Shown: one piece after another, positions 11,083-26,097 of the stretch | Numbering within the stretch: position 1 is the first letter of the stretch | Layout: each line of letters begins with the position of its first letter | Assembly (NCBI GenBank): GCA_002747955.1 | Contig: PDQZ01000008.1 | Location: 79,425-143,424, forward strand | Direction: 5' to 3' | DNA: 64,000 bases | Origin: Candidatus Campbellbacteria bacterium | GTDB lineage: Bacteria; Patescibacteriota; Minisyncoccia; Phycocordibacterales; GCA-2747955 | Made by a program: the position numbers and the translations under genes | Notes under the pieces: generated by a model | What the model was told of the DNA's origin: nothing | The model's database searches: none | Seen by the model: the letters and a program-made list of their open reading frames with translations, nothing else

Positions 11083-11669
11083 AGAAAAAAATAATACAAT
11101 TAATTATACTATTTTTTATAATAATAATTATCATTATAGTAGTAACAAAAAGTCAAAAAACCAATATAACAAATCAAGATAATATCATACAAGAAAGCGA
11201 TAAAAATTTTTGGAGTAAGAATAATTGTTTTAGACCTGTGCCAGAAAGTTTTGTTATAAAAAATAAATTTTTAAAAGATTATAGTGTTTCTTTAAATAAA
11301 GAAAAGGGTTATTTGTTAGAAAAATTTGTTCTAAATGATAAAAAATTTGAAGTAATACAATATGGCTGCAATTCTTTTATAATTAAATTTTTAGTTCCAA
11401 TTGATGAAAGTCAAGTTGTAAAAGAAATTAACAATAATTTTTTGCATTTCGTTGTTGATGAATTGGATGAAGTGAAAAAAGTTTATAAAGATGATTTTAT
11501 AAAAATAATATCTAATATTTTATTGGAAAAAAAAGATTTGGTGAAATTTAATCACGTGGTCTATTCTACTTGTGGTGGTGAATTGTGTAATAACTATATA
11601 GTTTTGTCCGAAATAAAAAAAATAGGTAATGAGTATTATGTGCCAGTTAAATTTGTTCAAGACTATTAA
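11079..11669 (+). CDS. hypothetical N-terminally anchored protein
   Basis: ATGA overlap with the upstream stop; N-terminal TM IIQLIILFFIIIIIIIVV; Cys-containing soluble domain. Confidence 0.4.
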   Translation: MKKKIIQLIILFFIIIIIIIVVTKSQKTNITNQDNIIQESDKNFWSKNNCFRPVPESFVIKNKFLKDYSVSLNKEKGYLLEKFVLNDKKFEVIQYGCNSFIIKFLVPIDESQVVKEINNNFLHFVVDELDEVKKVYKDDFIKIISNILLEKKDLVKFNHVVYSTCGGELCNNYIVLSEIKKIGNEYYVPVKFVQDY

Positions 11670-11702
11670 AAATTAAGAAATTTAAGTTCAAAACTAAATC
11701 TT

Positions 11703-12923
11703 TTGAAAAAAGGTTCAAAAGACAAAAAAGCAATCAAGCAACTTCAAAAATACTTAAACAAAAAAGGTTACAAAGCAGGTTATGCTGATGGAATATTTGG
11801 AAACAAAACAAAAAATGCTTTAAAAGATTTTCAAAAAGATAATAACTTAAAAGTTGATGGAAAGTTTGGAAGACAAACTGCAAGATATATTGATAAACAT
11901 TGTTACGATGATGTGATAGAAAGCAAAAATGAGATAGAAAAGGAAGCAGAAGAAGAGATTGAACAGGTGGAAGAGAAAGAAGAAACACAAACTTCAAACG
12001 AAACAGAAAACGAAAATACAGAAAATCCAGTTGAAACGACAGAGGATTCAGAAATTGAAACTCAAACTGAAAACCTAACACAAGAAGAAAGAGTAGAAAA
12101 TTTAAAAGAATTTCTTGAAAAAGCAAATTCAGAAAAAACAATTCCGCAATGTACGGAAGACGGAATTATTAATGAAGAGATTGAGGAAGAGGAAGCAGTT
12201 GTAGAGGAATTATTGACACAAGAAATTTTAAAACAAGCATTTGGCTTAAATGTAGATAAAGAGATTGTTGATAAATTTAATGAACTAATGCCTTTATACG
12301 AAATAGATAATAAATATAGAATTTCACATTTTTTAAGTCAGTTGGCGCATGAGTCAGGTATTAGAAATATTCCAGAACATCATAATTATAGCAAGACAAG
12401 ATTATTAAGACAATTTGGGTGCGGATATAAAACAGTGAATGGTAAAAGAATAAAACAGTGGGACAAGAGAAAAAAAACATGCAAACCAGGTTATAAAAAA
12501 AGAGTAAATACATTATGGAAAAATCCTGAAAAATATGTAAACAGCCCTAATTTGTTTAATTTAGTATATAGCAAGATAATAGGTAATGGAAGTGTTGAGA
12601 GTGGGGATGGGTTTAGGTATAGGGGGAGAGGTATAATTCAATTAACTGGAAAAGCAAATTATCGAAATTTTACAAAATATTATCAAAGAAAAACTGGAAA
12701 AAAAGTTGATTTTGTAAAAAATCCTGATTTGGTATTAGTTCCTGAATATTCTGTTTCATCAGCCTTTTGGTATTGGCATTCAAGAGGTGTTAATAAATAT
12801 GCTGTGGATGATAGGGAGGAAACTATTGTAGTTGTTACTAAAAAAGTAAATGGTGGAACTAACGGTTTAGAAGATAGAAAAAATAAATTTTATAAAATAT
12901 ATAATTTAATTAAAGATAAATAA
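11703..12923 (+). CDS. GH19-family lysozyme/chitinase-like peptidoglycan hydrolase with N-terminal PG_binding_1 domain and acidic linker
   Basis: TTG start; PG-binding module; C-terminal FLSQLAHESG and YRGRGIIQLTGKANYRNF...SAFWYWH match the GH19 signature (SHETG / GRGPIQL / AFWFWM). Confidence 0.65.
   Translation: MKKGSKDKKAIKQLQKYLNKKGYKAGYADGIFGNKTKNALKDFQKDNNLKVDGKFGRQTARYIDKHCYDDVIESKNEIEKEAEEEIEQVEEKEETQTSNETENENTENPVETTEDSEIETQTENLTQEERVENLKEFLEKANSEKTIPQCTEDGIINEEIEEEEAVVEELLTQEILKQAFGLNVDKEIVDKFNELMPLYEIDNKYRISHFLSQLAHESGIRNIPEHHNYSKTRLLRQFGCGYKTVNGKRIKQWDKRKKTCKPGYKKRVNTLWKNPEKYVNSPNLFNLVYSKIIGNGSVESGDGFRYRGRGIIQLTGKANYRNFTKYYQRKTGKKVDFVKNPDLVLVPEYSVSSAFWYWHSRGVNKYAVDDREETIVVVTKKVNGGTNGLEDRKNKFYKIYNLIKDK
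11710..12200 (+). repeat. PG-binding plus acidic-linker cassette, copy 2
   Basis: Near-identical to 9289..9790. Confidence 0.8.
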
Positions 12924-12928
12924 AAGAT

Positions 12929-13426
12929 ATGAAAAAATATATAACAATATTAATCACTATAATATTAATGGTATTATTAATTTGGTTTTTAAGTAAAGAA
13001 TATTATAAGCATGCAAGAGAAAATGATATAGGAAATAATATTATTATAGAACAAGATGAGTATGAAAAAGATAAAAGCATTTTTTTACATCATGAGGGCA
13101 AGAAGATAAAAATACATGATTTGAAACCAAAATACACTGTTCCAGAAAATTACATTGACCACTTTACCTATAAAACAAAAGATAATAAACAATATATTGT
13201 GTTGGTAGTAAGTTGGGAGGCAAAAGATGAAGAAGGATTTGTTGATAAAGATAATACAATATACATTTATGATTTAGAAGGAAAGAATGTTAATAAAGAT
13301 GAAAAATATGTTTGGTTTGGAAAATGGTTTGGCGAGAATGACGATCAAACGGTGATGTATGAAAAAAAAGATAGAAAATACATTATCGATGAGATGAAAA
13401 AACTTGAACTAGAAAATAAAATTTAA
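12929..13426 (+). CDS. hypothetical N-terminally anchored protein
   Basis: N-terminal TM ITILITIILMVLLIWFL; TAA stop at 13424-13426. Confidence 0.4.
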   Translation: MKKYITILITIILMVLLIWFLSKEYYKHARENDIGNNIIIEQDEYEKDKSIFLHHEGKKIKIHDLKPKYTVPENYIDHFTYKTKDNKQYIVLVVSWEAKDEEGFVDKDNTIYIYDLEGKNVNKDEKYVWFGKWFGENDDQTVMYEKKDRKYIIDEMKKLELENKI

Positions 13427-13684
13427 AAAAGAAAAGGTTCAAAAGACAAAACATCAATCAAACAACTTCAAAAATACTTAAACAAAAAAGGTTACAACGC
13501 AGGTTATCCTGACGGTATATTTGGAAACAAAACAAAAAGTGCTTTAAAAGATTTTCAAAAAGACAACAGTCTAACAGTTGACGGAAAGTTTGGGAAACAA
13601 ACAGTAAGATATATTGATAAACATTGTTACGATGATGTGATAGAAAACAAAAATGAAATAGAAAAGGAAAAACAAAAAACATAA
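13427..13684 (+). pseudogene. orphan PG_binding_1 cassette fragment (copy 3), in-frame with 12929..13426 across a single TAA
   Basis: Encodes KGSKDKTSIKQLQKYLNKKGYNAGYPDGIFGNKTKSALKDFQKDNSLTVDGKFGKQTVRYIDKHCYDDVIENKNEIEKE; no start codon; the stop of the upstream ORF lies immediately in-frame before it. Confidence 0.5.
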
Positions 13685-13747
13685 AAAACATTTAGCAGGA
13701 AAACAAATTTAATAGTTTGTTTTTCTTTTTTGTGTTAAAATGATTTT

Positions 13748-14575
13748 ATGAAATATATTGATACACATTCTCATTTGTATGATGATAAATATACGCAAGA
13801 AGAAAGAAAAGAAGTTTTGGAAGAAATGAAAAAACAAGACATTTGGACAGTTTCGATTTCTTGTGATCAAAAAACTTGTTTACAAGCCCTTGCTTTGGCT
13901 TTGGAAAATGAAAATATTTACGCGTCAGTTGGAAATCACCCTTTTGACAATAGGAAAGAAAAGTTTGATTCTGAATTTTATCAAAAAATTGTTAGTCAAA
14001 ATAAAGACCAGATTGTTTGTGTGGGGGAGTGTGGTCTTGATTATTATTATTTAAAACGCCAAATTAAAGAAGGAGAAATCACTCAGCAAGACTTTGAAAA
14101 TGATCAAAAAAGACAGTTTGAAATGTTTGAGCAACATATTGATTTTGCTGTTAAAAACAATTTGCCTTTAATGCTTCACGTTCGAAGTTACAAAAAGCAA
14201 GACGCTCACAAAGATGCTTTGGAAATTTTAGACAAAAAACAAAAAGAACATAATGGAAAAATCAAAGCTTGTTTTCACTTTTTCACTGAAAACAGAAAAA
14301 TCGCAAGGCAAATTTTGGAAAGAGGATATTATATTTCACTTCCAGGAGTGATTACTTTTGCCGATTTAGATTTGTTGGTTGCTGAGTTACCACTTGATAA
14401 AATTTTGTCTGAAACAGATTCACCTTATGCAGCACCTGTTCCTTACCGAGGAAAAAATAACAACCCAGTTTATGTAAAAGAAGTTGTTAAAAAAATAGCA
14501 GAAGTTAAAGGACTTGATCAGAAAGAGTGTAACGAGCAGTTGGTCAAAAATGCAAAAAATTTTTTTGGAATTTAG
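13748..14575 (+). CDS. tatD: TatD-family metal-dependent hydrolase
   Basis: MKYIDTHSHL N-terminal motif, GECGLDYY, C-terminal SETDSPY. Confidence 0.8.
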   Translation: MKYIDTHSHLYDDKYTQEERKEVLEEMKKQDIWTVSISCDQKTCLQALALALENENIYASVGNHPFDNRKEKFDSEFYQKIVSQNKDQIVCVGECGLDYYYLKRQIKEGEITQQDFENDQKRQFEMFEQHIDFAVKNNLPLMLHVRSYKKQDAHKDALEILDKKQKEHNGKIKACFHFFTENRKIARQILERGYYISLPGVITFADLDLLVAELPLDKILSETDSPYAAPVPYRGKNNNPVYVKEVVKKIAEVKGLDQKECNEQLVKNAKNFFGI

Positions 14576-14580
14576 AAAAT

Positions 14581-14668
14581 AAAGCCCCAAATTTTGAAAA
14601 ATTTTTTAGAAAAAACGAAAGACAAAGTCTTTCGTTTTTTCCAAAAAATTTTTCAAAATTTGGGGATT
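14581..14668. repeat. long perfect-palindrome hairpin element (family member); bidirectional terminator between tatD and rnhA
   Basis: about 43-bp arms aaagccccaaattttgaaaaatttttt... around gacaaagtc; right arm overlaps the rnhA stop. Confidence 0.7.
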
Positions 14669-15168
14669 TATTTTAAATAATTATCTTCTTTTCCAACATA
14701 CAAATCAAACTCTGTTCTCATGGCAGAAAATCTTGCAATATCGTCTACTCGTTCGTTGTACTTTTGTCCGTTGTGAGCTTTAACATGGAAGTATTTTATT
14801 TTGTTGTCAGTTTTAATCATCTTTTCCATATTGTAAATATTTTGCCAAAGTTTTTTATTTTTAACTTCTTTTTTAGCAGAATTTTTCCAGCCGTTTTTAA
14901 TCCAGCTTTCAATCCATTCAGTTAAACCTTGAATGACATATTTTGAATCAGAATAAATTTGAATATCATATTCTTGTGCATTTTTGGAAATAATAGTTTC
15001 AAAAGCTTTGTAAATAGCCATCATTTCCATTTGGTTGTTTGTGGCATTTGCTTGGTAGCCTGCCATCTCCATAACTTTTTTATTTGCAAAAAAAATCACA
15101 CCCCAGCCACCATCTCCTGGATTATTTAAACTTGAACCATCTGTATAAATTAGCATTTTTTTCATCAA
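14668..15168 (-). CDS. rnhA: ribonuclease HI
   Basis: MLIYTDGSSLNNPGDGGWGV, NNQMEMMAIYKAFE, YSDSKYVIQG and HNGQKYNERVDDIAR match the RNase H DEDD fold. Confidence 0.8.
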   Translation of the reverse strand: MMKKMLIYTDGSSLNNPGDGGWGVIFFANKKVMEMAGYQANATNNQMEMMAIYKAFETIISKNAQEYDIQIYSDSKYVIQGLTEWIESWIKNGWKNSAKKEVKNKKLWQNIYNMEKMIKTDNKIKYFHVKAHNGQKYNERVDDIARFSAMRTEFDLYVGKEDNYLK

Positions 15169-15204
15169 AGTTATTTTAACATTTTTTGAAAATAAAAACT
15201 AATA

Positions 15205-15285
15205 AAAAGCCCGAAAATTTAATTTTGAAAAAGCTGAGAGGCCTTGCCTCTCAACTTTTTCAAAATTAAATTTTCGGGCTTTTTA
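15205..15285. repeat. long perfect-palindrome hairpin element (family member) in a divergent intergenic region
   Basis: aaaaagcccgaaaatttaattttgaaaaagctgagaggc-cttg-gcctctcagctttttcaaaattaaattttcgggcttttt; apex carries the GGCCTTGCC core. Confidence 0.7.
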
Positions 15286-15313
15286 GATCAAAAAATGATA
15301 TAATGTTTTTATT

Positions 15314-16378
15314 ATGGAAAACATCACAAGAAAAATATCATATACAGTTTTTGCTCTTTTGGGAGTTCCTGTGTTTTTATATTACAGCCGAGAAATTTTA
15401 ATCCCAATTGTTTTTGCTTTTTTGATTTGGTTTATTATTTTAATTTTCAAAAAATTTCTAGAAAAAATTAAAGTTTTTAATCACCAAATACCAAACTTTT
15501 TACAAAATATTATTTCAACAATAATTGTTTTTGTTTTAATTTTTGCAATTTCGTCTTTGGTGGCAGATAACGCAAATGAATTTGCTAAAGTTTTTCCAGA
15601 GTATAAAGAAAATGTAAATGCTCAAATTTTAAAACTTTCAGAATACACAAATGTAAACATTGTGGAAGGTATTACAAATTACATCAAAGGAATTAATTTC
15701 TCAAAAGTTCTTTACAGTTCTTTCGGTTTTGTCACAAACGCTATGGGAACACTGTTTCTGATTTTAATTTACGTTATTTTCCTTTCAGGAGAGAAAAAAT
15801 ATTTTAAAAAGAAACTTCAAAGTTCATTTAAAAACTCTCAAAGTTTAAAACACACAGAACTTGTTTTAGAAAAAATTTCATACTCAATTCAAAGATATTT
15901 ATCTTTAAAATCAACAATCAGTTTGTTAACAGCAGGATTGTCTTATATTGTTTTGGTTTTTGTAGGAGTTGATTTTGCTTTCTTGTGGGCATTTTTGATC
16001 TTTATTTTTAACTTTTTGCCAAATATCGGATCAATTATTGCAACTTTTTTTCCAACAGCTATTGCTTTGATTCAGTTTCCAACAATTACCGAAGGTATAA
16101 TCGTGCTTATTTCGATCACTGTTATTCAACTTATAGTAGGAAATGTGGTTGAACCAAAAGTTATTGGAAATTCTTTAAACTTAAGTTCTTTTGTAGTTAT
16201 TTTGTCCTTGGTCTTTTGGGGAGCTGTTTGGGGAATTGCTGGAATGTTTTTGTCAGTTCCGTTGATGGTTATTTTGATGATTATTTTGTCAAATATTGAA
16301 AAAACAAAACCCATTGCTATTTGGCTTTCTGCCACAGGGGAAGTTTCAAAAGTAAAAGGAATCGAAAAAATTAAATAA
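15314..16378 (+). CDS. AI-2E family (PerM/UPF0118) membrane transporter
   Basis: 8 predicted TM helices; C-terminal NLSSFVVILSLVFWGAVWGIAGMFLSVPLMVIL is typical of the family. Confidence 0.6.
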   Translation: MENITRKISYTVFALLGVPVFLYYSREILIPIVFAFLIWFIILIFKKFLEKIKVFNHQIPNFLQNIISTIIVFVLIFAISSLVADNANEFAKVFPEYKENVNAQILKLSEYTNVNIVEGITNYIKGINFSKVLYSSFGFVTNAMGTLFLILIYVIFLSGEKKYFKKKLQSSFKNSQSLKHTELVLEKISYSIQRYLSLKSTISLLTAGLSYIVLVFVGVDFAFLWAFLIFIFNFLPNIGSIIATFFPTAIALIQFPTITEGIIVLISITVIQLIVGNVVEPKVIGNSLNLSSFVVILSLVFWGAVWGIAGMFLSVPLMVILMIILSNIEKTKPIAIWLSATGEVSKVKGIEKIK

Positions 16379-16391
16379 TTTTTGATTAAAT

Positions 16392-16430
16392 AAAAAGCAG
16401 AATTTGCCTTCGGCAAATTCTGCTTTTTTT
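16392..16430. terminator. bidirectional intrinsic terminator between the transporter gene and ssrA
   Basis: aaaaagcagaatttgcc-ttcg-gcaaattctgcttttttt. Confidence 0.7.
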
Positions 16431-16432
16431 TG

Positions 16433-16831
16433 TGGAGATGGAGGGATTTGCACCCTCGTTCAAATAAACCTAATAAAAGTATCTACAATAATAGTTTATT
16501 TTAAAATATCATTTTTAAAAATAAAAAATAAACAAAATTTTTTAAAAACTATCTCTTGTAAATTCAACTGCATTTCAGAGAGTAAATACAGTTTATCTTG
16601 AAAATATTATCAGACAAACTTTCGTATCAAGAAATCAGAAAGCCGTCTGCCAACATAGCTGGGAGAATTTATCTCAACCTAAAACTATGCGTACGCGTAT
16701 GCTGGAGCAAATGGACTTGCCACTGCTTGTTTGAATTTTTTTGCATTTATATTCTTTGGAATTTTTACAATATTTCCAAATTGTATTGCAACTTGAATTA
16801 AAATTTTACTTGTCAAAGCTGGTACATCCCC
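16433..16831 (-). ncRNA. ssrA: transfer-messenger RNA (tmRNA, ssrA)
   Basis: Minus-strand 5-prime end GGGGAUGUACCAGCUUUGACAAG and 3-prime end GAGGGUGCAAAUCCCUCCAUCUCCA-A match the tmRNA tRNA-like domain, with a G3-U wobble in the acceptor stem and discriminator A. Candidate tag ORF GCA AAA AAA UUC ... GCA UAC GCG UAC GCA UAG, i.e. (A)KKFKQAVASPFAPAYAYA. Length about 400 nt. Consensus promoter directly upstream. Confidence 0.65.
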
Positions 16832-16842
16832 AGTTAGACATA

Positions 16843-16870
16843 ATTATATTTATTTTTTTAACTTTGTCAA
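16843..16870 (-). promoter_or_regulatory. sigma70-type promoter TTGACA-N16-TATAAT driving ssrA
   Basis: Minus strand reads ttgacaaagttaaaaaaataaatataat, 11 nt before the tmRNA G1. Confidence 0.6.
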
Positions 16871-16949
16871 ATTCAAAACTTGAATTTACTATATTCCAAA
16901 ATCATTTTTTCTTTTACTAATTTTTTGTTTATGATAAAATATAAAATAT

Positions 16950-19900
16950 ATGACTGAAAATAAAAATACAGATGATCAAAAAGATTATGATAAACTTTAT
17001 CCAAAAACACCTACTGTTTTAGATGAAAACGAGATTTTAGATTTTTGGAATCAAAATAAAATTTTTGAAAAATCAATAGAACAAAACAAAGAAAAAGAAC
17101 AATTTGTTTTTTACGATGGTCCGCCATTTGCAACAGGAACTCCGCACTACGGACACATTGTTCCTGGAACCATCAAAGACGTTTTCCCAAGATACAAATC
17201 AATGAAAGGGTATTATGTAAAAAGGCAATGGGGTTGGGACTGTCACGGAATGCCTATTGAAAACATTGTTGAAAAAAAACACAACCTAAATTCAAAAAAA
17301 GATATTGAAGAATTTGGAATCGAAAACTTCACAAAATCAGCCGCAGAATCTATTTTCACTTACAAAGATGTTTGGGAAGAAACAATCCCAAAAACAGGAC
17401 GATGGGCCGACATGACAAAACCGTATTTAACAATGTCGCCCGACTATATCGAGTCTGTTTGGTGGGCTTTTAAAGAGCTTTACGACAAAGGACTTGTCAC
17501 AAAAGATTTCAAAGCAATGCACATTTGTCCGCGTTGTGAAACAACACTTTCAAACAGAGACGTTTCAGAAGGATACAAAGATATCAAAGACCTATCTTTG
17601 ATTGCAAAATTCAAACTTGAAGACCAAAAAAACACTTTTGTTTTAGCTTGGACAACAACTCCTTGGACACTTCCAGGAAACGTGGCTTTGGCTGTGGGTT
17701 CAGATATTGATTATGTAAAAGTAAAAGACGCAGAAACTGAAGAATTTTTCATTTTTGCCAAAAACAAAAAAGAAGAATTAGAACAAAAATCTCAGAAAAC
17801 TTTTGAAGTGATCGAAGAGTTAAAAGGAAGCGATTTGATTGGACAAAAATACGTTCCACTTTTTGATTACTACGCAAAGAACAAAGATTTAAAAAACCAA
17901 GAAAACGGTTGGTTAATTTACGATGCAGATTTTGTAACAACAGAAGACGGAACAGGGATTGTTCATATTGCGCCTGCTTTCGGTGAAGACGATATGGAGC
18001 TTGGAAGACAACAAAGCCTGCCATTTGTTCAACATGTTGGAATGAACGGAAAATTCAACAAAGAAGTAACAGACTTTGCTGGTTTGAAAGTTCGAAAAAC
18101 AGACTTTCACGAAGAAGCCGATATTGAAATTATCAAATTTTTAGCAGGCAAAGGAGCACTATTTCACAAAGAAAAATACGAACACTCATATCCACACTGT
18201 TGGAGATGTAAAACTCCACTTTTAAACTATGCAGCATCGTCTTGGTTTGTAGATGTGCCACAAGTTAGAGAACAACTTGCCGAAGAAAACAAAAAAGTAG
18301 GTTGGGTTCCAGAATACGTTGGACAAAAACGTTTCCAAAACTGGCTTGAAACTGCCAGACCTTGGGCTGTTTCTCGTTCTCGATATTGGGGTTCACCAAT
18401 TCCAATTTGGCAAAACACAGAAGATCAAAACGATTTTAAAGTTATTGGTTCTTTAGAAGAGTTAAAAAACTATACACGAGGAACAAACAACTTTTTTGCT
18501 ATAAGACACGGACAATCAAAAGCAAATGTCAATGACAATTTATCATCAGAAATCGGAAAACACGGAGACGAGTTAACCGAAGAAGGTAAAAAACAAGTTT
18601 TAGAAAGAGCAAAAGAACTAAAAGAAACTGATTTTATTCAAAAAAATTCACAAGTTCAAAATTCAGACAAAATTGACATTATCATCTCATCTCCATTTGT
18701 AAGAACAAAACAATCAGCCGAAATCATCGCAGAGGAACTTGGAATTTCAAAAGATTACATTGTATATGACGAAAGAATTCAAGAAAGAGATTTTGGAAGT
18801 GCTACTGGAAAACCAAATCCGCTTTTTGACAAATGGATTGAAAATGAAGCCAAAACAGAAAACCATAAATTTGAAGGAGGTGAAAGTCACGCTGATATTG
18901 TTAAAAGAACAATGGAATTTTTGTTTGAAATTAATCAAAAATATGAAGGTAAAAATATTTTGCTTGTCACTCACTTTACACCAACTTATGTTATGGTTGC
19001 AACTTCTTTGGGTTATAACATGGAAAGAGCAAGAAAAATGCTAACACAAGAATGGAAAACAGTTCAAAACTCACAAGTTTATCCAATAAATTTTGCTCCA
19101 TATCCACACGACCAAAATTTCAAATTAGATTATCACAGACCGTATATTGATGATGTAAAATTTGTTCACGACGGTAAAAACTATGAAGTTATAACAGATG
19201 TTTTTGACACCTGGTTTGACTCAGGTTCAATGCCTTACGCTTCAAGACATTATCCTTTTGAAAACACAGATTTATTTAATCCAGAAAAAGACTTATCATA
19301 CCCGGCTGACTTTATCTCAGAAGGACTTGATCAAACTCGTGGATGGTTTTACGTTCTGATGGTTTTGGGATATATTTTGTTTGGAAAATCTCCATACAAA
19401 AATGTAGTTGTCCACGGAATGCTAATGGCCGAAGACGGAAAGAAAATGTCAAAATCTTTGCAAAACTATCCTCCAATGGAAAAAGTTTTGAACATTTATG
19501 GAGCTGATGCTTTAAGATTGTTTTTGTTAACATCTTCAATTGTAAAAGGAGATTCTCCCGGATTTTCTGAAAAAGGAGTAGACGAAATTTTGAAAAAAGT
19601 TATCATGAAGTCAAAAAACATCTTATCTTTTTACAACCTTTACAAAAACGAAGTTTCAAATAAAGAACTTGACTACAAAAAATCTCCAAATGTTTTAGAC
19701 AAATGGATTGTTAAAAAAACAGAAAATTTGGTTCAAAAAGTTACAGATGGTTTAGAATCATACAAGCTTGATGAAGCTTCAAGAGAATTTGTTTCGTTCA
19801 TTGACGACTTTTCAACTTGGTATATCAGAAGATCAAGAGACAGATACAAAGGACAAAATCAAGAAGATAAAGACTTTGCAATTTTAACAACCAAAGAAGT

Positions 19901-20618
19901 TTTGAAAACTTTTGCTAAAACAATTTCTCCATTTGCTCCATTTTTGTCAGAAGTTTTGTGGAAAGATTTGAAAAGCAACGACGACAAAATCTCTGTTTGT
20001 TTGGAATCTTGGCCTGAAATAAAAAAGAACTTAAAAGACAAAATCGTTTCAAACAAACATATTTTGGAGCAAATGCAAATGGTCCGAGACATCGTTTCAT
20101 TTGGTCTTGAAGCAAGATCAGAGGCAGGAATAAAAGTTCGACAACCTTTGCAAAAAGCACTTGCGGTAGGAGATTTTTCAGAAATTTCTAAAAATGAACA
20201 ATTTGTAGAAATTATCAAAGATGAGTTAAATGTAAAAGAACTTGTTTTTGCAGAAAACCTAGATGAGGTTCAGGAAAAATACAAAGAATTTGAAAACAAG
20301 GCTTTGGAAAACAAAGAAAGTGACAATGAAATTTTTGTATTTTTAGATACAGTTCTAAATGACGAACTTAAAGAAGAGGGAAATTTCAGAGAGTTTTTGA
20401 GACTTGTTCAAACCTTAAGAAAGAAAGAAGGTTTGCAAGTTAAAGATGAAATTGAACTTAAAATTGACGTTGACCAAAACTCAAAAGACTTTATTGAAAA
20501 AAATAAAGAAGAGCTAAAAAACACAGCGGGAGTAAAAAATATAAATTATTCTGAAATTCCAACAGGGGAAAGTGTAAAAATCAACGATATTGAACTTAAA
20601 GTAATTTTAATTAAATAA
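16950..20618 (+). CDS. ileS: isoleucyl-tRNA synthetase (type 2) with an inserted histidine-phosphatase (phosphoglycerate-mutase-like) domain
   Basis: HIGH (PHYGHIV), KMSKS, WCISRQ-like SRSRYWGSPIPIW; 1222 aa; insertion of about 200 aa with RHGQS, SSPFVRTKQSAEI, GGESHADIVKR and LLVTHF motifs. Confidence 0.9.
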   Translation: MTENKNTDDQKDYDKLYPKTPTVLDENEILDFWNQNKIFEKSIEQNKEKEQFVFYDGPPFATGTPHYGHIVPGTIKDVFPRYKSMKGYYVKRQWGWDCHGMPIENIVEKKHNLNSKKDIEEFGIENFTKSAAESIFTYKDVWEETIPKTGRWADMTKPYLTMSPDYIESVWWAFKELYDKGLVTKDFKAMHICPRCETTLSNRDVSEGYKDIKDLSLIAKFKLEDQKNTFVLAWTTTPWTLPGNVALAVGSDIDYVKVKDAETEEFFIFAKNKKEELEQKSQKTFEVIEELKGSDLIGQKYVPLFDYYAKNKDLKNQENGWLIYDADFVTTEDGTGIVHIAPAFGEDDMELGRQQSLPFVQHVGMNGKFNKEVTDFAGLKVRKTDFHEEADIEIIKFLAGKGALFHKEKYEHSYPHCWRCKTPLLNYAASSWFVDVPQVREQLAEENKKVGWVPEYVGQKRFQNWLETARPWAVSRSRYWGSPIPIWQNTEDQNDFKVIGSLEELKNYTRGTNNFFAIRHGQSKANVNDNLSSEIGKHGDELTEEGKKQVLERAKELKETDFIQKNSQVQNSDKIDIIISSPFVRTKQSAEIIAEELGISKDYIVYDERIQERDFGSATGKPNPLFDKWIENEAKTENHKFEGGESHADIVKRTMEFLFEINQKYEGKNILLVTHFTPTYVMVATSLGYNMERARKMLTQEWKTVQNSQVYPINFAPYPHDQNFKLDYHRPYIDDVKFVHDGKNYEVITDVFDTWFDSGSMPYASRHYPFENTDLFNPEKDLSYPADFISEGLDQTRGWFYVLMVLGYILFGKSPYKNVVVHGMLMAEDGKKMSKSLQNYPPMEKVLNIYGADALRLFLLTSSIVKGDSPGFSEKGVDEILKKVIMKSKNILSFYNLYKNEVSNKELDYKKSPNVLDKWIVKKTENLVQKVTDGLESYKLDEASREFVSFIDDFSTWYIRRSRDRYKGQNQEDKDFAILTTKEVLKTFAKTISPFAPFLSEVLWKDLKSNDDKISVCLESWPEIKKNLKDKIVSNKHILEQMQMVRDIVSFGLEARSEAGIKVRQPLQKALAVGDFSEISKNEQFVEIIKDELNVKELVFAENLDEVQEKYKEFENKALENKESDNEIFVFLDTVLNDELKEEGNFREFLRLVQTLRKKEGLQVKDEIELKIDVDQNSKDFIEKNKEELKNTAGVKNINYSEIPTGESVKINDIELKVILIK

Positions 20619-20622
20619 AGTT

Positions 20623-20717
20623 AAAAAGCCCAGAATTTTGGAGAATTTTTGGCGGAAAAAAAACAGGCGAAGCCTGTTTTTTTTCCGCCAAAAATTCTCC
20701 AAAATTCTGGGCTTTTT
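20623..20717. repeat. long perfect-palindrome hairpin element (family member); terminator after ileS
   Basis: aaaaagcccagaattttggagaatttttggcggaaaaaaaacaggc-gaa-gcctg...gggcttttt, about 45-bp arms. Confidence 0.7.
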
Positions 20718-20805
20718 AACCACTCAAAACTTCCAGGTTTAAATCGACTGAAAGCATTGAAAATAAAAGAAAAACAGCACATTTAAGTACTGTAATTCCT
20801 GTTTT

Positions 20806-20879
20806 GGGTGCCTACTCGGAATCGAACCGAGATTGTCGGATCCACAAACCGAAGTAATAACCGTTATACCATAGGCACC
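20806..20879 (-). tRNA. tRNA-His (anticodon GTG)
   Basis: Cloverleaf on the minus strand: extra 5-prime G(-1) pairing with discriminator C73, anticodon loop UUGUGGA, T-arm CUCGG-UUCGAUU-CCGAG; CCA not encoded. Confidence 0.8.
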
Positions 20880-20987
20880 ATTTCTACAAAAAATCTATTT
20901 TTGTTTGTGTATTATAGCATTTTTTTTATTTTTTTTAAAGTATTTTATGCTATAATTTAAGTATTAAAAATTTAATTAAATAAATAT

Positions 20988-21638
20988 ATGGAAAAAATAG
21001 ATACAACAAATATAACAAAAACAGTAGAAAATTTTGCTTCTGAAAAAACAGGTTTAAGTCCCGTGTGGATTGCTGTTATAACAGTTGCTTTGGTATTTGT
21101 AGTTTGGGTTGTTAAAGTTTACAACTCTTTGGTACAAAAAAGAATTAGAACAAAAGATGCTTGGTCTGGAATTGATATTCAAATTAAAAACAGATACGAC
21201 TTGGTTCCAAACTTGGTTAACACTGTTAAGGGTTATGCATCTCATGAAAAAGAAACTCTAGAGAGGGTTTTAGAAGCTCGTTCAAAAGCAACAGCTATAA
21301 AAATTGACGCAGCAAACGTAACAAAAGAACAAATGGCGATGTTTGCAGGTGCTCAAGGAGAACTTACAGCAGGGCTTGGAAAACTTATGGCAATAGCTGA
21401 AAACTATCCAGAACTTAAAGCAAATGAAAACTTTTTAGAATTGCAAAGAACTTTGGAAGATTTAGAAGATAAAATTGCTGCAGCAAGAAGATTTTACAAT
21501 GGAACAGTTAGCGACTATAACGAACAAGTTAAAATGTTCCCATCAAATATTATTGCAAAAATTTTCAACTTCACTCAAAGAGAATTTTTTGAAGTTGCAG
21601 AAGAGGAGAAGAAAAATCCTGAAGTTAAGTTTGATTAA
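20988..21638 (+). CDS. lemA: LemA family protein
   Basis: N-terminal TM and LemA motifs (AWSGIDIQIKNRYDLVPNLVNTVKGYASHEKETLE). Confidence 0.8.
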   Translation: MEKIDTTNITKTVENFASEKTGLSPVWIAVITVALVFVVWVVKVYNSLVQKRIRTKDAWSGIDIQIKNRYDLVPNLVNTVKGYASHEKETLERVLEARSKATAIKIDAANVTKEQMAMFAGAQGELTAGLGKLMAIAENYPELKANENFLELQRTLEDLEDKIAAARRFYNGTVSDYNEQVKMFPSNIIAKIFNFTQREFFEVAEEEKKNPEVKFD

Positions 21639-21648
21639 AAAATAAAAA

Positions 21649-22620
21649 ATGGCAGTTAACGCGTATACCGAATCTGAAAAAAATGTTCTAAAAACCTGGC
21701 TTTTAATGAGCGGGTTTTTAGTGGTTGTTATTTTACTAGGTTGGTGGCTTTCTTATTATTTGCAAAATCCAGTTATTTTGTATGTAGCAGCAATTGGGTC
21801 TGTAACTACAAATTTTATTTCTTATTTTAATTCAGATAAAATTGCTTTGGCAGTTTCTGGAGCAAAAGAAGCTGACTATAAAAACACTTTACACAGACGA
21901 GCAATCAGAGCCGTTGAAAATATGTCTATTGCCGCAGGACTTAAAAAAACTCCAAAAGTGTATATTATACAAGACGATGCGATGAATGCTTTTGCAACAG
22001 GTCGTGGCCCAGAAAAATCTTCGGTTGCTTTTACAACGGGGATTTTGGAAAAACTAAATAAACTTGAACTTGAAGGGGTGGCTGCACATGAGATTTCTCA
22101 TATTAAAAACCGAGATATTTTAGTTATGACAGTGGTGGTGACTTTGGTTGGGTTAATTTCAATGGTTACAGACTTTTTTTTGAGAACTTCAATTACCGGC
22201 TCAACTACAAGCAATAGAAATAACAACAACGCAGTTTTGGTTTTAATCGGAATTGCTTTAACGGTATTTTCTTTGATTGCAGCTTATATTATTCAATTTA
22301 CAATTTCAAGAAAAAGAGAGTATCTAGCAGACTCTTCGTCAGTTTTGTTAACAAGGTATCCTGAAGGACTTGCAAGTGCTTTGGAAAAAATTAAAAATGA
22401 AGCAAAGCCATTAAAGAGAGCTAAAAATGCAACAGCACATTTGTTTATTTCAAACCCTGATGTCGAAGCAGATAAAGATCGAAGAAAGAAAAATCCATTT
22501 GCCTTTGTCCAAAATATGTTTTCAACTCATCCACCAATTCAAAAAAGAATTGATATATTGCGAGAAATTGATCAAAAGAAAAAAAGAGTGACAAAAACTG
22601 GAAGGGCGGTAGATGTTTAA
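21649..22620 (+). CDS. htpX: HtpX-like M48 zinc metalloprotease
   Basis: HEISHIKNRD (HExxH) with flanking TM helices; usual LemA-HtpX pairing. Confidence 0.8.
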   Translation: MAVNAYTESEKNVLKTWLLMSGFLVVVILLGWWLSYYLQNPVILYVAAIGSVTTNFISYFNSDKIALAVSGAKEADYKNTLHRRAIRAVENMSIAAGLKKTPKVYIIQDDAMNAFATGRGPEKSSVAFTTGILEKLNKLELEGVAAHEISHIKNRDILVMTVVVTLVGLISMVTDFFLRTSITGSTTSNRNNNNAVLVLIGIALTVFSLIAAYIIQFTISRKREYLADSSSVLLTRYPEGLASALEKIKNEAKPLKRAKNATAHLFISNPDVEADKDRRKKNPFAFVQNMFSTHPPIQKRIDILREIDQKKKRVTKTGRAVDV

Positions 22621-22664
22621 AACAAAACAACAAAAACTTTGTTGTTTGGTTTTTGTTTAACCGG

Positions 22665-22712
22665 GCCCGAAAATTGAACCAAACTCCAAAAACACAGGTT
22701 CAATTTTCGGGC
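22665..22712. repeat. short member of the palindromic hairpin family
   Basis: gcccgaaaattgaacc-aaactccaaaaacaca-ggttcaattttcgggc; related to 43853..43891. Confidence 0.6.
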
Positions 22713-23124
22713 TTCATCACTTGCTTTTTTATTTTAAAATGATAAAACATTCTTATGGCTCTGGGTGTTATTAAAGATCAGTTCCTCCTAAATACACAAT
22801 TGATTTTAACACCCAGAGCCCACCACCTTTTTTTGAAGGAGGTTTTTTATTTGTCTTAAAAATAAGCTTAAAAATTTGACTACACTTATCCACACAAGTC
22901 AAATTTTATATTTGCCTTATTATTTTGCTATGTTATAATTATCTTTGCTCAAGCGTGCTTTGCACGTCGTCAAATTGTTAAGTGACCAGATCTATCTGGC
23001 ACGCTTGAGCAACCACCCTTCTGTTTTGAAGGCGGTTTTTTTATTTACCAACAATTTTCAAACAACCGTCAAGTTAATACTTGACAAATAAAATATATTT
23101 GTTAAAATATATTCAGAACTAAAA

Positions 23125-23477
23125 AAATTGTTTAGATTCAAAAAAGCCGGAGCGTATCCTAGCACGGTGACCAAACAATATTTTTAGTTTTAGAAAATAA
23201 GTGTGAGCTGGGAAACTTATTTTCGAAACTTCTTGCCTTGCTCTTAAGTAGTAGGCAAGAGTGAGGGCTGCAAAATGCTGCCCAATATAGGGGCTGCCGA
23301 AACGCCCCAAAAATAGGGAGCCCGCCCAAACCAATTTGGCTCCCAAAATCCCTCATCGACCTAATATGGTATTGAGGGTTGAGATTAAACACATCAATAA
23401 AATAGGTAAGACTTTAAAAATTTAATCTTACCAGGGTTTTGTCCCGGGCAATTTCAAGTGTTTTTAAGCAAGGATGC
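23125..23477 (-). ncRNA. rnpB: candidate RNase P RNA (rnpB)
   Basis: Minus strand contains GGUUUGGGCGGGCUCCCUAUU (resembles P4 5-prime strand GAAAGUCCGGGCUCCAUAG), GAGCAAGGCAAGAAG (resembles GGAGCAAGGCCAAAUAG) and near the 3-prime end AUACGCUCCGGCUUU (resembles ACAGAACCCGGCUUA). TGTTACAAT -10 upstream. No long ORF. Boundaries approximate. Confidence 0.35.
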
Positions 23478-23490
23478 TTAAGAGATTGTA

Positions 23491-23525
23491 ACAACCGTTG
23501 ATAATTATTTTATCAACGGTTTTTA
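23491..23525 (+). terminator. intrinsic terminator in the noncoding island
   Basis: aaccgttgata-attatttt-atcaacggttttt. Confidence 0.5.
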
Positions 23526-23807
23526 TTTTATTGAAATTTTATTTAGTTTACTTTTTATTTGAAAATGTTATAATTTTTATTGTTCGGGTGTGTTTTTTGT
23601 TTTTTTTCCTGCTCCTGGGTTTCTCAATAAAAAGCACGCCTGAACCTCCACCACTTTATTTTAAGTGGTTTTTTATTTTTTTAAATAAAAATTTGGAGAT
23701 ATGATTTTTTTATGTTATAATACTGAAAGTTTTTTTGTGAAAATGCTTGTAAAATAAGGGTTTTTACAAAGTTTTAGGTTAAATTTTCATTAAATTCGGA
23801 GGAAAAA

Positions 23808-24233
23808 ATGAAAAAAATTTTAGTTATGTTGCTAACTTTTTTGTTTTGTAAATTTGTATTTGCAAGCGAGGTGACTTGTCTTGCGGATACAATTTACAAT
23901 GAGGCTCGTAGCGAACCTCTTATTGGTCAAAAAGCAGTTGCAGCTGTTGTTTTCAATCGTATAAAAAGTAAAAGCGCTATTTACAAAGAAAACACAGTTT
24001 GTGCCACTGTAAAGAAAAAAGCGCAGTTTGCTTCTGGCAAGCCTGCGAAAAAAGGATTTGAAAGAGAAAAATACTATAAAATAAGAAGAAATTCTTTGAA
24101 ATGGTATTATGAGTTTGTTAACAAAAAATTTGTTGATCCAACTTATGGCTCTTTACTTTTTGCTTCACGTGGATACATTCACAAAGGCAAGAAAAAAACA
24201 GTAAAAATTGGTGGTCACCAATTTTTTAAGTAA
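23808..24233 (+). CDS. SleB-like cell wall hydrolase (Hydrolase_2 family), secreted
   Basis: signal peptide, then CLADTIYNEARSEPLIGQKAVAAVVFNRIKS...TVCATV...QF matching the SleB/Hydrolase_2 domain; GGAGG SD. Confidence 0.65.
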   Translation: MKKILVMLLTFLFCKFVFASEVTCLADTIYNEARSEPLIGQKAVAAVVFNRIKSKSAIYKENTVCATVKKKAQFASGKPAKKGFEREKYYKIRRNSLKWYYEFVNKKFVDPTYGSLLFASRGYIHKGKKKTVKIGGHQFFK

Positions 24234-24350
24234 GCATATTTCTAAGGCTTGAGCTTTTGTTCAAGCCTTTTTTGTTTTAAAATTTCGGGTAAAAATATTT
24301 TTAATAAAAAACACTTTATGATATAATGTTAAAGATTTAATAAATATAAA

Positions 24351-25937: not shown

Positions 25938-25938
25938 A

Positions 25939-26039
25939 AAACAAAGCCCAAAATTTTAGAAAAGTTTTTGGTACAAAAAAAGCAGACTTCGTCTGCTTTT
26001 TTTGTACCAAAAACTTTTCTAAAATTTTGGGCCTTGTTT
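25939..26039. repeat. long perfect-palindrome hairpin element (family member) after atpA
   Basis: aaacaaagcccaaaattttagaaaagtttttggtacaaaaaaagcagac-ttcg-gtctgc...gggccttgttt. Confidence 0.7.
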
Positions 26040-26097
26040 TTATTTTTAACTAAAATTATGTTACAATAAACACAATGTATATAGTAAATATCATCTT

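What the first reader, a model, noticed from the sequence alone, without database searches (positions are those of the whole stretch)
18480..19080. Isoleucyl-tRNA synthetase with an inserted, catalytically intact histidine-phosphatase (PGM-like) domain
IleRS here is 1222 aa. Between the conserved SRSRYWGSPIPIW segment and the tRNA-binding D-x-W-F-D-S-G region there is an insertion of about 200 aa. It carries the full motif set of the histidine phosphatase / phosphoglycerate mutase superfamily: FFAIRHGQS (RHG), IISSPFVRTKQSAEII, GGESHADIVKR and LLVTHFTPTY. A phosphatase domain embedded in an aminoacyl-tRNA synthetase is, to my knowledge, not a described architecture. It could act on a phosphorylated substrate or tRNA end, moonlight in editing or signalling (Ap4A-like metabolism), or be a regulatory module.
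Basis: partly seen in the sequence, partly recalled or inferred. Interest (0 to 1): 0.6.

Follow-up and report, generated by a model that had tools for sequence, protein, structure and literature searches.

The report
Active phosphatase domain nested inside IleRS
The enzyme that loads isoleucine onto tRNA in this tiny-genome (Patescibacteria) bacterium carries a complete, apparently working phosphatase enzyme spliced into a surface loop; the same three-active-site protein is conserved across a large group of related bacteria, I found no paper describing it, and what the phosphatase acts on is unknown.

Summary
Confirmed. Window 16950-20618 (+) encodes a 1222-aa type-2 isoleucyl-tRNA synthetase (TIGR00392 838.6 bits, cut-off 621.4). 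Residues 511-726 (window 18480-19127) are a 216-aa insertion where yeast IleRS has about 5 residues, inside the variable CP3 subdomain. The insertion is a branch-1 histidine phosphatase (Pfam His_Phos_1, E=1.7e-24) with all catalytic residues: R519, H520, N526, R585, E612, H675. It is not an artefact. All 120 nearest full-length relatives (47-60% identity) carry it, as do the 80 best genome loci (all Patescibacteria/Parcubacteria) and most of the 150 listed representative hits of the exhaustive search. Five core catalytic residues and the key IleRS synthetic and editing motif residues are invariant in those 120. Its closest structures are small-molecule phosphatases (PspA, GpgP, TIGAR, CobC). 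It lacks the mutase-specific residues of E. coli-type dPGM. Some relatives carry a second, divergent but intact phosphatase, a GNAT or a P-loop domain in other loops. The substrate is unknown. My best reading is a small-molecule phosphomonoesterase docked on IleRS. Coupling to aminoacylation or tRNA is not excluded. I found no published description. It is a new variant of a known kind, an aaRS with an accessory domain.

The parts
16950..20618 (+). ileS: 1222-aa type-2 isoleucyl-tRNA synthetase with a nested phosphatase (= PID83445.1, deposited as 'hypothetical protein', Candidatus Campbellbacteria MAG)
   Evidence: (TIGR00392 838.6 bits vs cut-off 621.4)
17145..17156 (+). HIGH signature (HYGH, aa 66-69) of the aminoacylation site
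   Evidence: first H 120/120, G 120/120, last H 118/120 in the nearest relatives
17652..17669 (+). CP1 editing-domain motif TTTPWT (aa 235-240); the second editing motif GTGIVH starts at aa 334
   Evidence: TTTPWT 120/120 at every position; in GTGIVH both G and the H are 120/120, T 116/120
18399..18479 (+). N-terminal half of the CP3 subdomain (aa 484-510: IPIW...GSLEELK). The zinc-knuckle cysteines kept by about half of the relatives are lost here (N489, Q493).
   Evidence: CP3 definition from PMC7191050
18480..19127 (+). The insertion (aa 511-726, 216 aa): phosphatase domain plus short, partly conserved connectors (N513; F715, P719, H720, D721)
18498..19040 (+). Pfam His_Phos_1 core (aa 517-697)
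   Evidence: E=1.7e-24; confident alpha/beta model; Foldseek top hits 4IJ5/4IJ6, 6S2Q, 4QIH, 3E9D
18504..18509 (+). R519-H520 of the RHG motif; H520 is the predicted phospho-accepting nucleophile
   Evidence: 236/236 each; 120/120 each
18702..18704 (+). R585 (second phosphate-binding Arg, SSPFVR)
   Evidence: 243/243; 120/120; aligns with GpmA R62
18783..18785 (+). E612 (predicted general acid, ERDFG)
   Evidence: 232/242; 120/120; aligns with GpmA E89
18972..18974 (+). H675 (second catalytic His, VTHF)
   Evidence: 240/242; 120/120; aligns with GpmA H184
19128..19226 (+). C-terminal half of CP3 and return to the Rossmann fold (aa 727-759: DYHRPYIDD...DVFDTWFDSG)
   Evidence: H729, D734, D753, W755 are 64/64
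19443..19457 (+). KMSKS loop (aa 832-836)
   Evidence: K832 and K835 120/120

Best explanation
SHOWN: the gene encodes one polypeptide holding three intact catalytic centres. These are the IleRS aminoacylation site (HIGH/KMSKS), the CP1 editing site, and a branch-1 histidine phosphatase site (R519, H520, N526, R585, E612, H675). The phosphatase is a 216-aa domain nested in the peripheral, structurally variable CP3 subdomain of the Rossmann fold. It always sits at the same position, is found in every near relative examined (all Patescibacteria/Parcubacteria), and has an essentially invariant active site. INFERRED: the domain works as a phosphomonoesterase by the family's usual chemistry. H520 attacks the phosphate held by R519, R585 and H675; E612 protonates the leaving group; the phospho-histidine is then hydrolysed. 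Its substrate is most likely a small phosphorylated metabolite, because its nearest sequence and structure relatives are PspA-, GpgP-, CobC-, PhoE- and TIGAR-type enzymes, not mutases or protein or RNA phosphatases. I propose it acts alongside aminoacylation without taking part in it. On this view, IleRS serves as a stable, always-expressed scaffold in a reduced genome, and CP3 is a permissive loop. Once nested in an essential gene, the domain cannot easily be lost, and its activity is kept because the cell needs it.
For: Domain identity and boundaries. Same position in all 80 best genome loci, in most of the 150 listed hits of the exhaustive search, where 155 representatives reach E<=1e-30, and in 120/120 nearest full-length relatives. 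Catalytic residues in 246 unique domains: R519 236/236, H520 236/236, R585 243/243, H675 240/242, E612 232/242. In the 120 full-length relatives R519, H520, R585, E612, E645 and H675 are 120/120, as are the first H and G of HIGH, K832/K835 of KMSKS and all of TTTPWT. Constraint level: insert 34% mean pairwise identity, against 52-58% for the catalytic core, 46% for editing and 30% for the C-terminal domain. Fold: the full-length AF2 model has pLDDT 91.4 and pTM 0.84, with most 10-residue blocks of the insert at 82-97 and one at 76. Foldseek top hits are H. thermophilus phosphoserine phosphatase, mycobacterial hydrolase 1 (6S2Q), glucosyl-3-phosphoglycerate phosphatase Rv2419c, TIGAR and CobC. 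Not mutase-like. CP3 is peripheral, its topology varies, and no tRNA contact is described for it (PMC7191050; PMC11685878). Scaffold behaviour: relatives hold a second intact phosphatase in tandem or at a different loop, a P-loop domain in another loop, and a GNAT in CP1. The same window has a NusB-NUDIX fusion. No kinase or metabolic partner is conserved next to the gene. The insert is mildly acidic, mean net charge -3.4.
Against: No substrate is identified, and every NCBIfam phosphatase equivalog is far below its cut-off. Independence from aminoacylation is an inference: I could not obtain coordinates to measure how the phosphatase pocket faces the synthetic site or the tRNA path. Retention in every near relative and short, partly conserved connectors fit a functional coupling equally well. 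So does the pattern among the extra copies, several of which score higher against standalone phosphatases than against the canonical nested domain, which may mean repeated capture. Whole-genome content (other phosphatases, PGM, a second IleRS) could not be examined. Only 64 kb of this genome and about 12 kb per relative were available.
Confidence: 0.5

Rival explanations
1. The phosphatase is functionally coupled to IleRS. It acts on a phosphomonoester produced or handled by the synthetase, such as AMP released by aminoacylation or editing, another adenine nucleotide derivative, or a 2'/3'-phosphorylated tRNA-Ile end. Alternatively, it gates synthetase activity in response to a phospho-metabolite.
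For: Found only inside IleRS, in all near relatives. Short, partly conserved connectors and a confident full-length model suggest a fixed dock, not a loose tether. Several lineages added a second catalytically intact histidine phosphatase to the same protein, and some of these score higher against standalone phosphatases than against the resident copy, which may mean repeated capture. The closest standalone homolog, P0269, lies 3 nt upstream of a HIT-family gene; from my own knowledge, HIT enzymes act on adenylates and Ap4A-type dinucleotides. From memory, PhoE-type members accept AMP.
Against: The nearest structures are small-molecule metabolic phosphatases. The papers read describe no CP3-tRNA contact. 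The extra copies sit at different loops, so no single geometry is conserved. The HIT neighbour is not seen next to other standalone relatives. The domain is not basic. The bit-score differences are small and the divergence is deep.
Confidence: 0.28
2. The embedded domain is the cell's phosphoglycerate mutase, or another core metabolic histidine-phosphatase-fold enzyme such as phosphoserine phosphatase. It would fill the PGM gap reported for some Parcubacteria clades.
For: Jaffe et al. [quoted passage not shown] The best-scoring phosphatase-type NCBIfam model is the short archaeal dPGM (75.5 bits). The window has a phosphoketolase, so lower glycolysis is presumably needed, and no PGM gene lies in these 64 kb. 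The best PDB match is a phosphoserine phosphatase.
Against: All equivalog cut-offs are missed by a wide margin: dPGM_arch 75.5 vs 225, GpmA-type 28.9 vs 316, GpmB 33.8 vs 261, PspA 58.1 vs 350. Against E. coli GpmA the insert lacks the K100 and R116/R117 region (about 30 aa), has F for Y92, does not conserve N186, and has no free C-terminal tail. 64 kb is only part of the genome, so the absence of a PGM gene here means little.
Confidence: 0.12
3. The domain is catalytically silent and serves only as a structural or ligand-sensing module of IleRS.
For: Being nested in an essential enzyme could preserve the fold for structural reasons. The insert evolves faster than the catalytic core.
Against: A structural role would not keep R519, H520, R585, E612 and H675 at 96-100% over sequences that are only about 34% identical overall. 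Both copies stay intact in the two-domain variants.
Confidence: 0.06
4. Assembly or gene-calling artefact: a chimeric contig or a frameshift fusing two genes.
For: The source is a metagenome-assembled genome.
Against: It is a single uninterrupted ORF with IleRS sequence on both sides of the insert. The same architecture appears in 80 independent genome loci and 120 full-length proteins from many studies.
Confidence: 0.01

Closest known systems
Type-2 (eukaryote-like) isoleucyl-tRNA synthetases, e.g. S. cerevisiae (8WND), C. albicans (6LDK), T. thermophilus (1ILE), P. megaterium IleRS2 (8C8U)
   Same: Full domain set (Rossmann fold, CP core, CP1 editing, CP2, CP3, anticodon-binding and C-terminal domains), HIGH/KMSKS and editing motifs; 646-724 bits to these chains.
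   Different: 216 aa replace about 5 aa in CP3. The CP3 zinc cysteines present in Thermus and in about half of the fusions are lost in the window protein.
Small-molecule branch-1 histidine phosphatases: H. thermophilus phosphoserine phosphatase PspA (4IJ5/4IJ6), M. tuberculosis glucosyl-3-phosphoglycerate phosphatase Rv2419c (4QIH), CobC, PhoE (1H2E), TIGAR
   Same: Fold (Foldseek E about 1e-13 to 1e-10, target-normalised TM up to 0.75) and the complete catalytic residue set.
   Different: Those are free-standing enzymes. Identity is only 15-25%. Every curated equivalog model is far below its cut-off. Here the domain's two ends are tied into another enzyme.
Cofactor-dependent phosphoglycerate mutase (E. 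coli GpmA, 1E58)
   Same: Shared catalytic core: R10/H11/N17/R62/E89/H184 align with R519/H520/N526/R585/E612/H675.
   Different: Lacks the K100 and R116/R117 substrate-binding segment (about 30 aa), Y92 (F here), N186 and the C-terminal tail. 28.9 bits vs cut-off 316.
IleRS with an embedded GNAT acetyltransferase (NCBIfam NF040702 'ileS_w_GNAT')
   Same: A precedent that IleRS can carry a foreign enzymatic domain. One relative, P0326, has both the phosphatase and a GNAT.
   Different: A different domain family. In P0326 the GNAT lies in CP1 (aa 285-415), not CP3. The window protein has no GNAT and scores 322.6 vs cut-off 1999. I did not establish whether P0326 belongs to NF040702.
Bifunctional RNase H / acid phosphatase (Rv2228c type, NCBIfam NF005567); yeast TFIIIC tau55 histidine phosphatase domain (recalled from memory)
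   Same: A CobC-like histidine phosphatase joined to a nucleic-acid enzyme or to tRNA-gene machinery; 73.6 bits over the phosphatase part.
   Different: Those are end-to-end fusions, not a domain nested inside a catalytic fold. The score is below the cut-off of 326. The tau55 comparison rests on my own knowledge and was not tested here.

Membership tests
Histidine phosphatase superfamily, branch 1 (Pfam PF00300) | Profile score above the curated gathering threshold | tested here: met
   87 bits vs 21.7, E=1.7e-24, aa 517-697
Histidine phosphatase superfamily, branch 1 (Pfam PF00300) | RHG motif with the nucleophilic His, second Arg, second His and an acidic proton donor | tested here: met
   R519, H520, R585, H675, E612; aligned to GpmA R10, H11, R62, H184, E89; 96-100% conserved in 246 domains and 120/120 in near relatives
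Histidine phosphatase superfamily, branch 1 (Pfam PF00300) | Alpha/beta fold of the family | tested here: met
   AF2 models; Foldseek probability 1.00 to many solved members
Histidine phosphatase superfamily, branch 1 (Pfam PF00300) | Phosphatase activity through a phospho-histidine intermediate | not testable with these tools
   Needs an enzyme assay with an H520A control
Isoleucyl-tRNA synthetase (TIGR00392), type 2 | Equivalog model above its cut-off; closer to type-2 than to type-1 enzymes | tested here: met
   838.6 vs 621.4 bits; 646-724 bits to yeast, Candida, Thermus and IleRS2 chains vs about 243-301 bits to type-1 chains
Isoleucyl-tRNA synthetase (TIGR00392), type 2 | HIGH and KMSKS signatures and CP1 editing motifs intact | tested here: met
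   HYGH aa 66-69, KMSKS aa 832-836, TTTPWT aa 235-240, GTGIVH from aa 334; key residues 116-120/120 in relatives
Isoleucyl-tRNA synthetase (TIGR00392), type 2 | Being the cell's sole, functional IleRS | not testable with these tools
   Only 64 kb of the genome was available; no second ileS in the window
Cofactor-dependent phosphoglycerate mutase (GpmA type) | Equivalog model above its cut-off | tested here: not met
   PRK01295 28.9 vs 316; dPGM_arch 75.5 vs 225; GpmB 33.8 vs 261
Cofactor-dependent phosphoglycerate mutase (GpmA type) | Substrate-binding residues K100, R116, R117, Y92, N186 and the C-terminal tail (list recalled from the dPGM literature) | tested here: not met
   hhalign to a verified E. 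coli GpmA sequence: the segment is deleted, Y92 is F, N186 is not conserved, no free tail. Caveat: short archaeal dPGMs may not need all of these
PspA-type phosphoserine phosphatase (NF045917) | Equivalog model above its cut-off | tested here: not met
   58.1 vs 350 bits, although 4IJ5/4IJ6 are the best PDB matches
Alpha-ribazole phosphatase CobC (TIGR03162) | Equivalog model above its cut-off | tested here: not met
   58.4 vs 162.9 bits
IleRS with GNAT domain (NF040702) | Model above its cut-off; GNAT domain present | tested here: not met
   322.6 vs 1999 bits; no GNAT hit in Pfam

The most novel reading that the evidence does not exclude
IleRS of Parcubacteria is a true three-activity enzyme in which the phosphatase is mechanistically tied to tRNA charging. 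It might remove AMP or another adenylate-derived phosphomonoester at the source, repair 2'/3'-phosphorylated tRNA-Ile ends, or couple charging to a phospho-metabolite signal. On this reading, the repeated addition of further histidine phosphatases (and of GNAT or P-loop domains) to the same synthetase reflects selection for that coupling.
Probability: 0.25. Interest if true: 0.8.

Novelty: new variant of a known kind. Interest (0 to 1): 0.58.

Why it matters
Accessory domains on aminoacyl-tRNA synthetases are well known: editing, tRNA-binding and signalling modules. To my knowledge, and in the literature I could search, a complete and selectively maintained phosphatase active site nested inside the catalytic fold has not been described. 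Here it is not a one-off. It is the normal form of an essential enzyme across a large branch of the Candidate Phyla Radiation, organisms whose physiology is largely inferred from gene lists. This has three consequences. First, annotation pipelines label these proteins 'hypothetical' or 'class I tRNA ligase family', so IleRS and a phosphatase activity may both be miscounted in metabolic reconstructions. Second, the embedded domain is a candidate for a 'missing' phosphatase or PGM-type activity in these reduced genomes. Third, the protein offers a clean experimental system (H520A, insert deletion) to ask whether a synthetase can host an independent enzyme or has gained a new coupled chemistry.

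Tried and rejected
- **Pattern scan with the 9-sequence insert alignment:** it failed as too diverse. I repeated it with the 4 closest sequences.
- **Apparent standalone close homologs among short hits (P0136, P0254, P0188 and others):** these are gene fragments with IleRS flanks. P0010 is also a fusion fragment.
- **Embedded mutase idea:** tested against a verified E. coli GpmA. The mutase-specific features are absent. It is kept only as a minor rival because short archaeal dPGMs exist.
- **HIT hydrolase neighbour of the closest standalone homolog:** not reproduced for two other standalone relatives, both from Firmicutes. Treated as anecdotal.
- **P-loop domain of P0256:** no specific kinase family could be assigned. 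The best matches are APS, shikimate or Pnkp-like kinases at E of about 1e-4 to 0.06.
- **Conserved gene neighbourhood:** only what look by eye like housekeeping neighbours (ArgRS-, RecO-like, membrane, GlyRS-like proteins; not scanned against any library). No kinase or metabolic partner was seen, and the window lacks even that synteny.
- **Net charge of the insert as a proxy for RNA binding:** mildly acidic and not decisive.
- **AFDB50 fold search:** unavailable.
- **Literature:** six searches on the architecture, the CPR context and the insertion site found no description of this architecture.
- **Full-length AF2 model:** it gives confidence values only. No coordinates were available to measure distances between active sites.
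Full report

- Window 16950-20618 (+) is one uninterrupted ORF of 1222 aa.
- It passes the NCBIfam isoleucine--tRNA ligase equivalog (TIGR00392, 838.6 bits against a cut-off of 621.4).
- Its best solved relatives are eukaryote-like or type-2 IleRS enzymes: yeast, Candida, Thermus and Priestia IleRS2 at 646-724 bits. Type-1 enzymes score about 243-301 bits.
- Pfam places His_Phos_1 at aa 517-697 (E=1.7e-24, 87 bits against a gathering score of 21.7), between two stretches of tRNA-synt_1.
- In the alignment to yeast IleRS, query residue 510 pairs with residue 493 and query 727 with 499. About 216 aa (window 18480-19127) therefore stand where the yeast enzyme has about 5.
- In 93 insert-free type-2 IleRS fragments the same interval is 1-36 aa.
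- The exact protein is in public databases as PID83445.1, 'hypothetical protein', from a Candidatus Campbellbacteria MAG in the Parcubacteria group of Patescibacteria.

**Where the insertion sits**

- Chung et al. define CP3 as residues 473-534 of C. albicans IleRS. It is a small peripheral subdomain linking CP2 to the second half of the Rossmann fold.
- CP3 has a zinc motif in Thermus but not in Candida or S. aureus, and its topology differs between species (PMC7191050).
- The insertion point lies inside CP3.
- About half of the fusion proteins keep the CxxC...CxC zinc-knuckle cysteines on both sides of the phosphatase. The window protein has lost them.
- The connectors are short and partly conserved: N513 59/64, P719 56/60, H720 41/61, N/D721 57/61.
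- An AlphaFold2 model of residues 23-1222, built on 87 full-length homologs, has mean pLDDT 91.4 and pTM 0.84. Most 10-residue blocks of the insert are at 82-97 and one is at 76.
- This is consistent with a docked domain, not a floppy one. I had no access to coordinates, so I cannot say which way the phosphatase pocket faces.
- The yeast IleRS-tRNA paper describes tRNA contacts for the catalytic, editing, anticodon-binding and C-terminal domains, but none for CP3.

**It is not an artefact, and it is not rare**

- The best 80 all come from Patescibacteria. The named ones are Campbell-, Nomura-, Taylor-, Yonath-, Kaiser-, Zambryski-, Lloyd- and Wolfebacteria, and Paceibacterota.
- In all 80 the domain lies in an IleRS ORF. 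It sits about 40 aa after the RYWG motif and before WFDSG.
- An exhaustive HMMER search of 1.84 billion representatives found 155 clusters at E<=1e-30. Most of the 150 listed hits span both junctions in one stretch.
- All 120 best full-length relatives (47-60% identity) carry PF00300. No insert-free IleRS appears among them.

**Selection on the insert**

- Counts in 246 unique nested domains: R519 236/236, H520 236/236, R585 243/243, H675 240/242, E612 232/242.
- In the 120 nearest full-length proteins, R519, H520, R585, E612, E645 and H675 are all 120/120.
- The same holds for the first His and the Gly of HIGH, both lysines of KMSKS and all of TTTPWT. The last His of HIGH is 118/120 and the Thr of GTG-x-x-H is 116/120.
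- Mean pairwise identity of the insert is 34%. The catalytic core is at 52-58%, the editing domain 46% and the native C-terminal domain 30%.
- The phosphatase is therefore a constrained functional domain with a strictly preserved active site, not a decaying passenger.

**What kind of phosphatase it is**

- The best PDB sequence hit is the Hydrogenobacter phosphoserine phosphatase.
- Foldseek on the predicted structure ranks that enzyme first. Mycobacterial hydrolase 1 (6S2Q), glucosyl-3-phosphoglycerate phosphatase Rv2419c, TIGAR, CobC and PhoE rank alongside or ahead of the true mutases.
- All curated NCBIfam equivalogs are far below their cut-offs.
- A profile alignment to E. coli GpmA, whose sequence I verified against 1E58, shows a shared catalytic core.
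- The same alignment shows the mutase-specific features missing: the K100 and R116/R117 segment (about 30 aa), Y92 (F here), N186 and a free C-terminal tail.
- I therefore file the domain in the histidine phosphatase superfamily, but in no characterised subfamily.
- The closest standalone protein found, P0269 (196 aa), is 39% identical and has the same RHGQSKAN motif. It scores 148.6 bits against the insert HMM, within the range of the nested copies.

**Variants in relatives**

- Six of the 162 proteins with the domain have two phosphatase domains. In three the copies are in tandem within CP3. In three the second copy lies about 370 aa downstream; in P0175 that is just before the anticodon-binding domain.
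- Both copies keep the catalytic residues, yet the two copies are only 25-32% identical to each other.
- Several extra copies score higher against standalone phosphatases than against the canonical nested domain. This may mean independent capture instead of duplication, but the margins are small.
- P0256 has a P-loop kinase-like domain in a third loop.
- P0326 has a GNAT inside CP1.
- NCBIfam already curates an 'ileS_w_GNAT' family.
- IleRS in this lineage therefore behaves as a scaffold that accumulates enzymatic domains.

**Genomic context**

- The gene is flanked by a tmRNA gene (16432-16831, minus strand) and tRNA-His (20806-20878, minus strand).
- Other nearby ORFs were read by eye from their translations and not scanned: an RNase HI-like ORF, a membrane protein, and LemA- and HtpX-like ORFs.
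- Most relatives share four neighbours that look by eye like an ArgRS, a RecO-like protein, a membrane protein and a GlyRS. The window does not have them, and no kinase or metabolic partner recurs.
- Only one standalone histidine phosphatase ORF occurs in 903 kb of sampled sequence, and none in the window.
- The window has a phosphoketolase but no PGM gene.

**Interpretation**

- What is shown: one polypeptide with three intact active sites, conserved in every relative examined.
- What is inferred: the domain is a phosphomonoesterase that uses H520 as nucleophile. It most likely acts on a small metabolite, working beside aminoacylation and not within it (confidence about 0.5).
- The main rival is functional coupling to the IleRS reaction or to tRNA (about 0.28). 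It is favoured by retention in all near relatives, the conserved connectors and the possibly repeated capture.
- An embedded PGM or other core metabolic enzyme is a minor rival (about 0.12). It is prompted by the report that PGM is missing from some Parcubacteria clades (PMC7304191).
- A silent structural role (about 0.06) is contradicted by the active-site conservation.
- An assembly artefact is excluded.

**Novelty**

- Six searches on the architecture, the CPR context and the insertion site found no paper describing this architecture.
- Databases do hold hundreds of examples under generic names.
- It is a new variant of a known kind, an aaRS with an accessory domain. It is notable for being a nested, active, lineage-wide third catalytic site.

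Noticed in passing
L002 4420-8082 and L006 4504-8073 (related loci): In two of the relatives closest to the window's insert (43% and 40% identity), ileS is interrupted by 21 and 23 in-frame TGA codons. 20/21 and 20/23 of them align with Trp of the window protein, so these genomes read UGA as Trp. The deposited protein for L006 (P0296) is already translated that way, so the record recognises it. The window genome itself uses TGG for Trp and TGA as a rare stop (3 of 44 ORFs).
   Followed up: yes
P0175, P0191, P0226 (second site); P0222, P0240, P0257 (tandem): Some relatives carry two histidine phosphatase domains in one IleRS. Both are catalytically intact but only 25-32% identical to each other. 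Several extra copies score higher against standalone phosphatases than against the canonical nested domain.
   Followed up: partly
P0256, aa ~736-910: One relative has, besides the phosphatase, a P-loop (Walker A GACGAGKT) kinase-like domain inserted between WFESGSMPYA and FPADFIAEGLDQTRGWF. It matches only generic AAA_18/AAA_33, APS-kinase, shikimate-kinase or Pnkp-like models.
   Followed up: partly
P0326, aa 285-415: An IleRS relative annotated 'GNAT family N-acetyltransferase' carries a GNAT domain inside the CP1 editing domain in addition to the CP3 phosphatase. NCBIfam has an 'ileS_w_GNAT' model.
   Followed up: partly
window 29570-30496 (+): A 308-aa ORF joins NusB (aa 6-145) to a NUDIX hydrolase domain (aa 171-297). 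This is a second fusion of a housekeeping factor with a hydrolase in the same genome.
   Followed up: no
window 16950-20618 (+): The deposited annotation of this protein is 'hypothetical protein', although it passes the curated IleRS equivalog threshold. Relatives are mostly named 'class I tRNA ligase family protein'. IleRS could be scored as missing in automated reconstructions.
   Followed up: yes
window 16432-16831 (-) and 20806-20878 (-): A tmRNA gene (tag AKKFKQAVASPFAPAYAYA) lies directly upstream of ileS and a tRNA-His(GTG) lies downstream, both on the opposite strand.
   Followed up: no
L001-L080 flanks vs window 9000-28000: Most relatives share four conserved neighbours of ileS that look by eye like an ArgRS (55 loci), a RecO-like protein (62), a ~640-aa membrane protein (60) and a GlyRS (43). 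The window has none of these next to ileS. The families were not scanned against any library.
   Followed up: partly
L081 748-1731: The closest standalone homolog of the inserted domain (P0269, 196 aa) is followed 3 nt later by a HIT-family hydrolase gene. This was not seen for two other standalone relatives.
   Followed up: partly
window 43971-45749, 47290-50367, 51070-52119 (+) and 28394-29497 (+): Four sizeable ORFs (592, 1025, 349 and 367 aa) have no Pfam match at E<=1e-5. A 925-aa ORF (52485-55262) has only DUF11 and weak PhoD_N-like hits.
   Followed up: no
window 26098-28074 (+): The alanyl-tRNA synthetase ORF is only 658 aa, ending at the tRNA_SAD domain. From memory this is shorter than typical bacterial AlaRS.
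   Followed up: no
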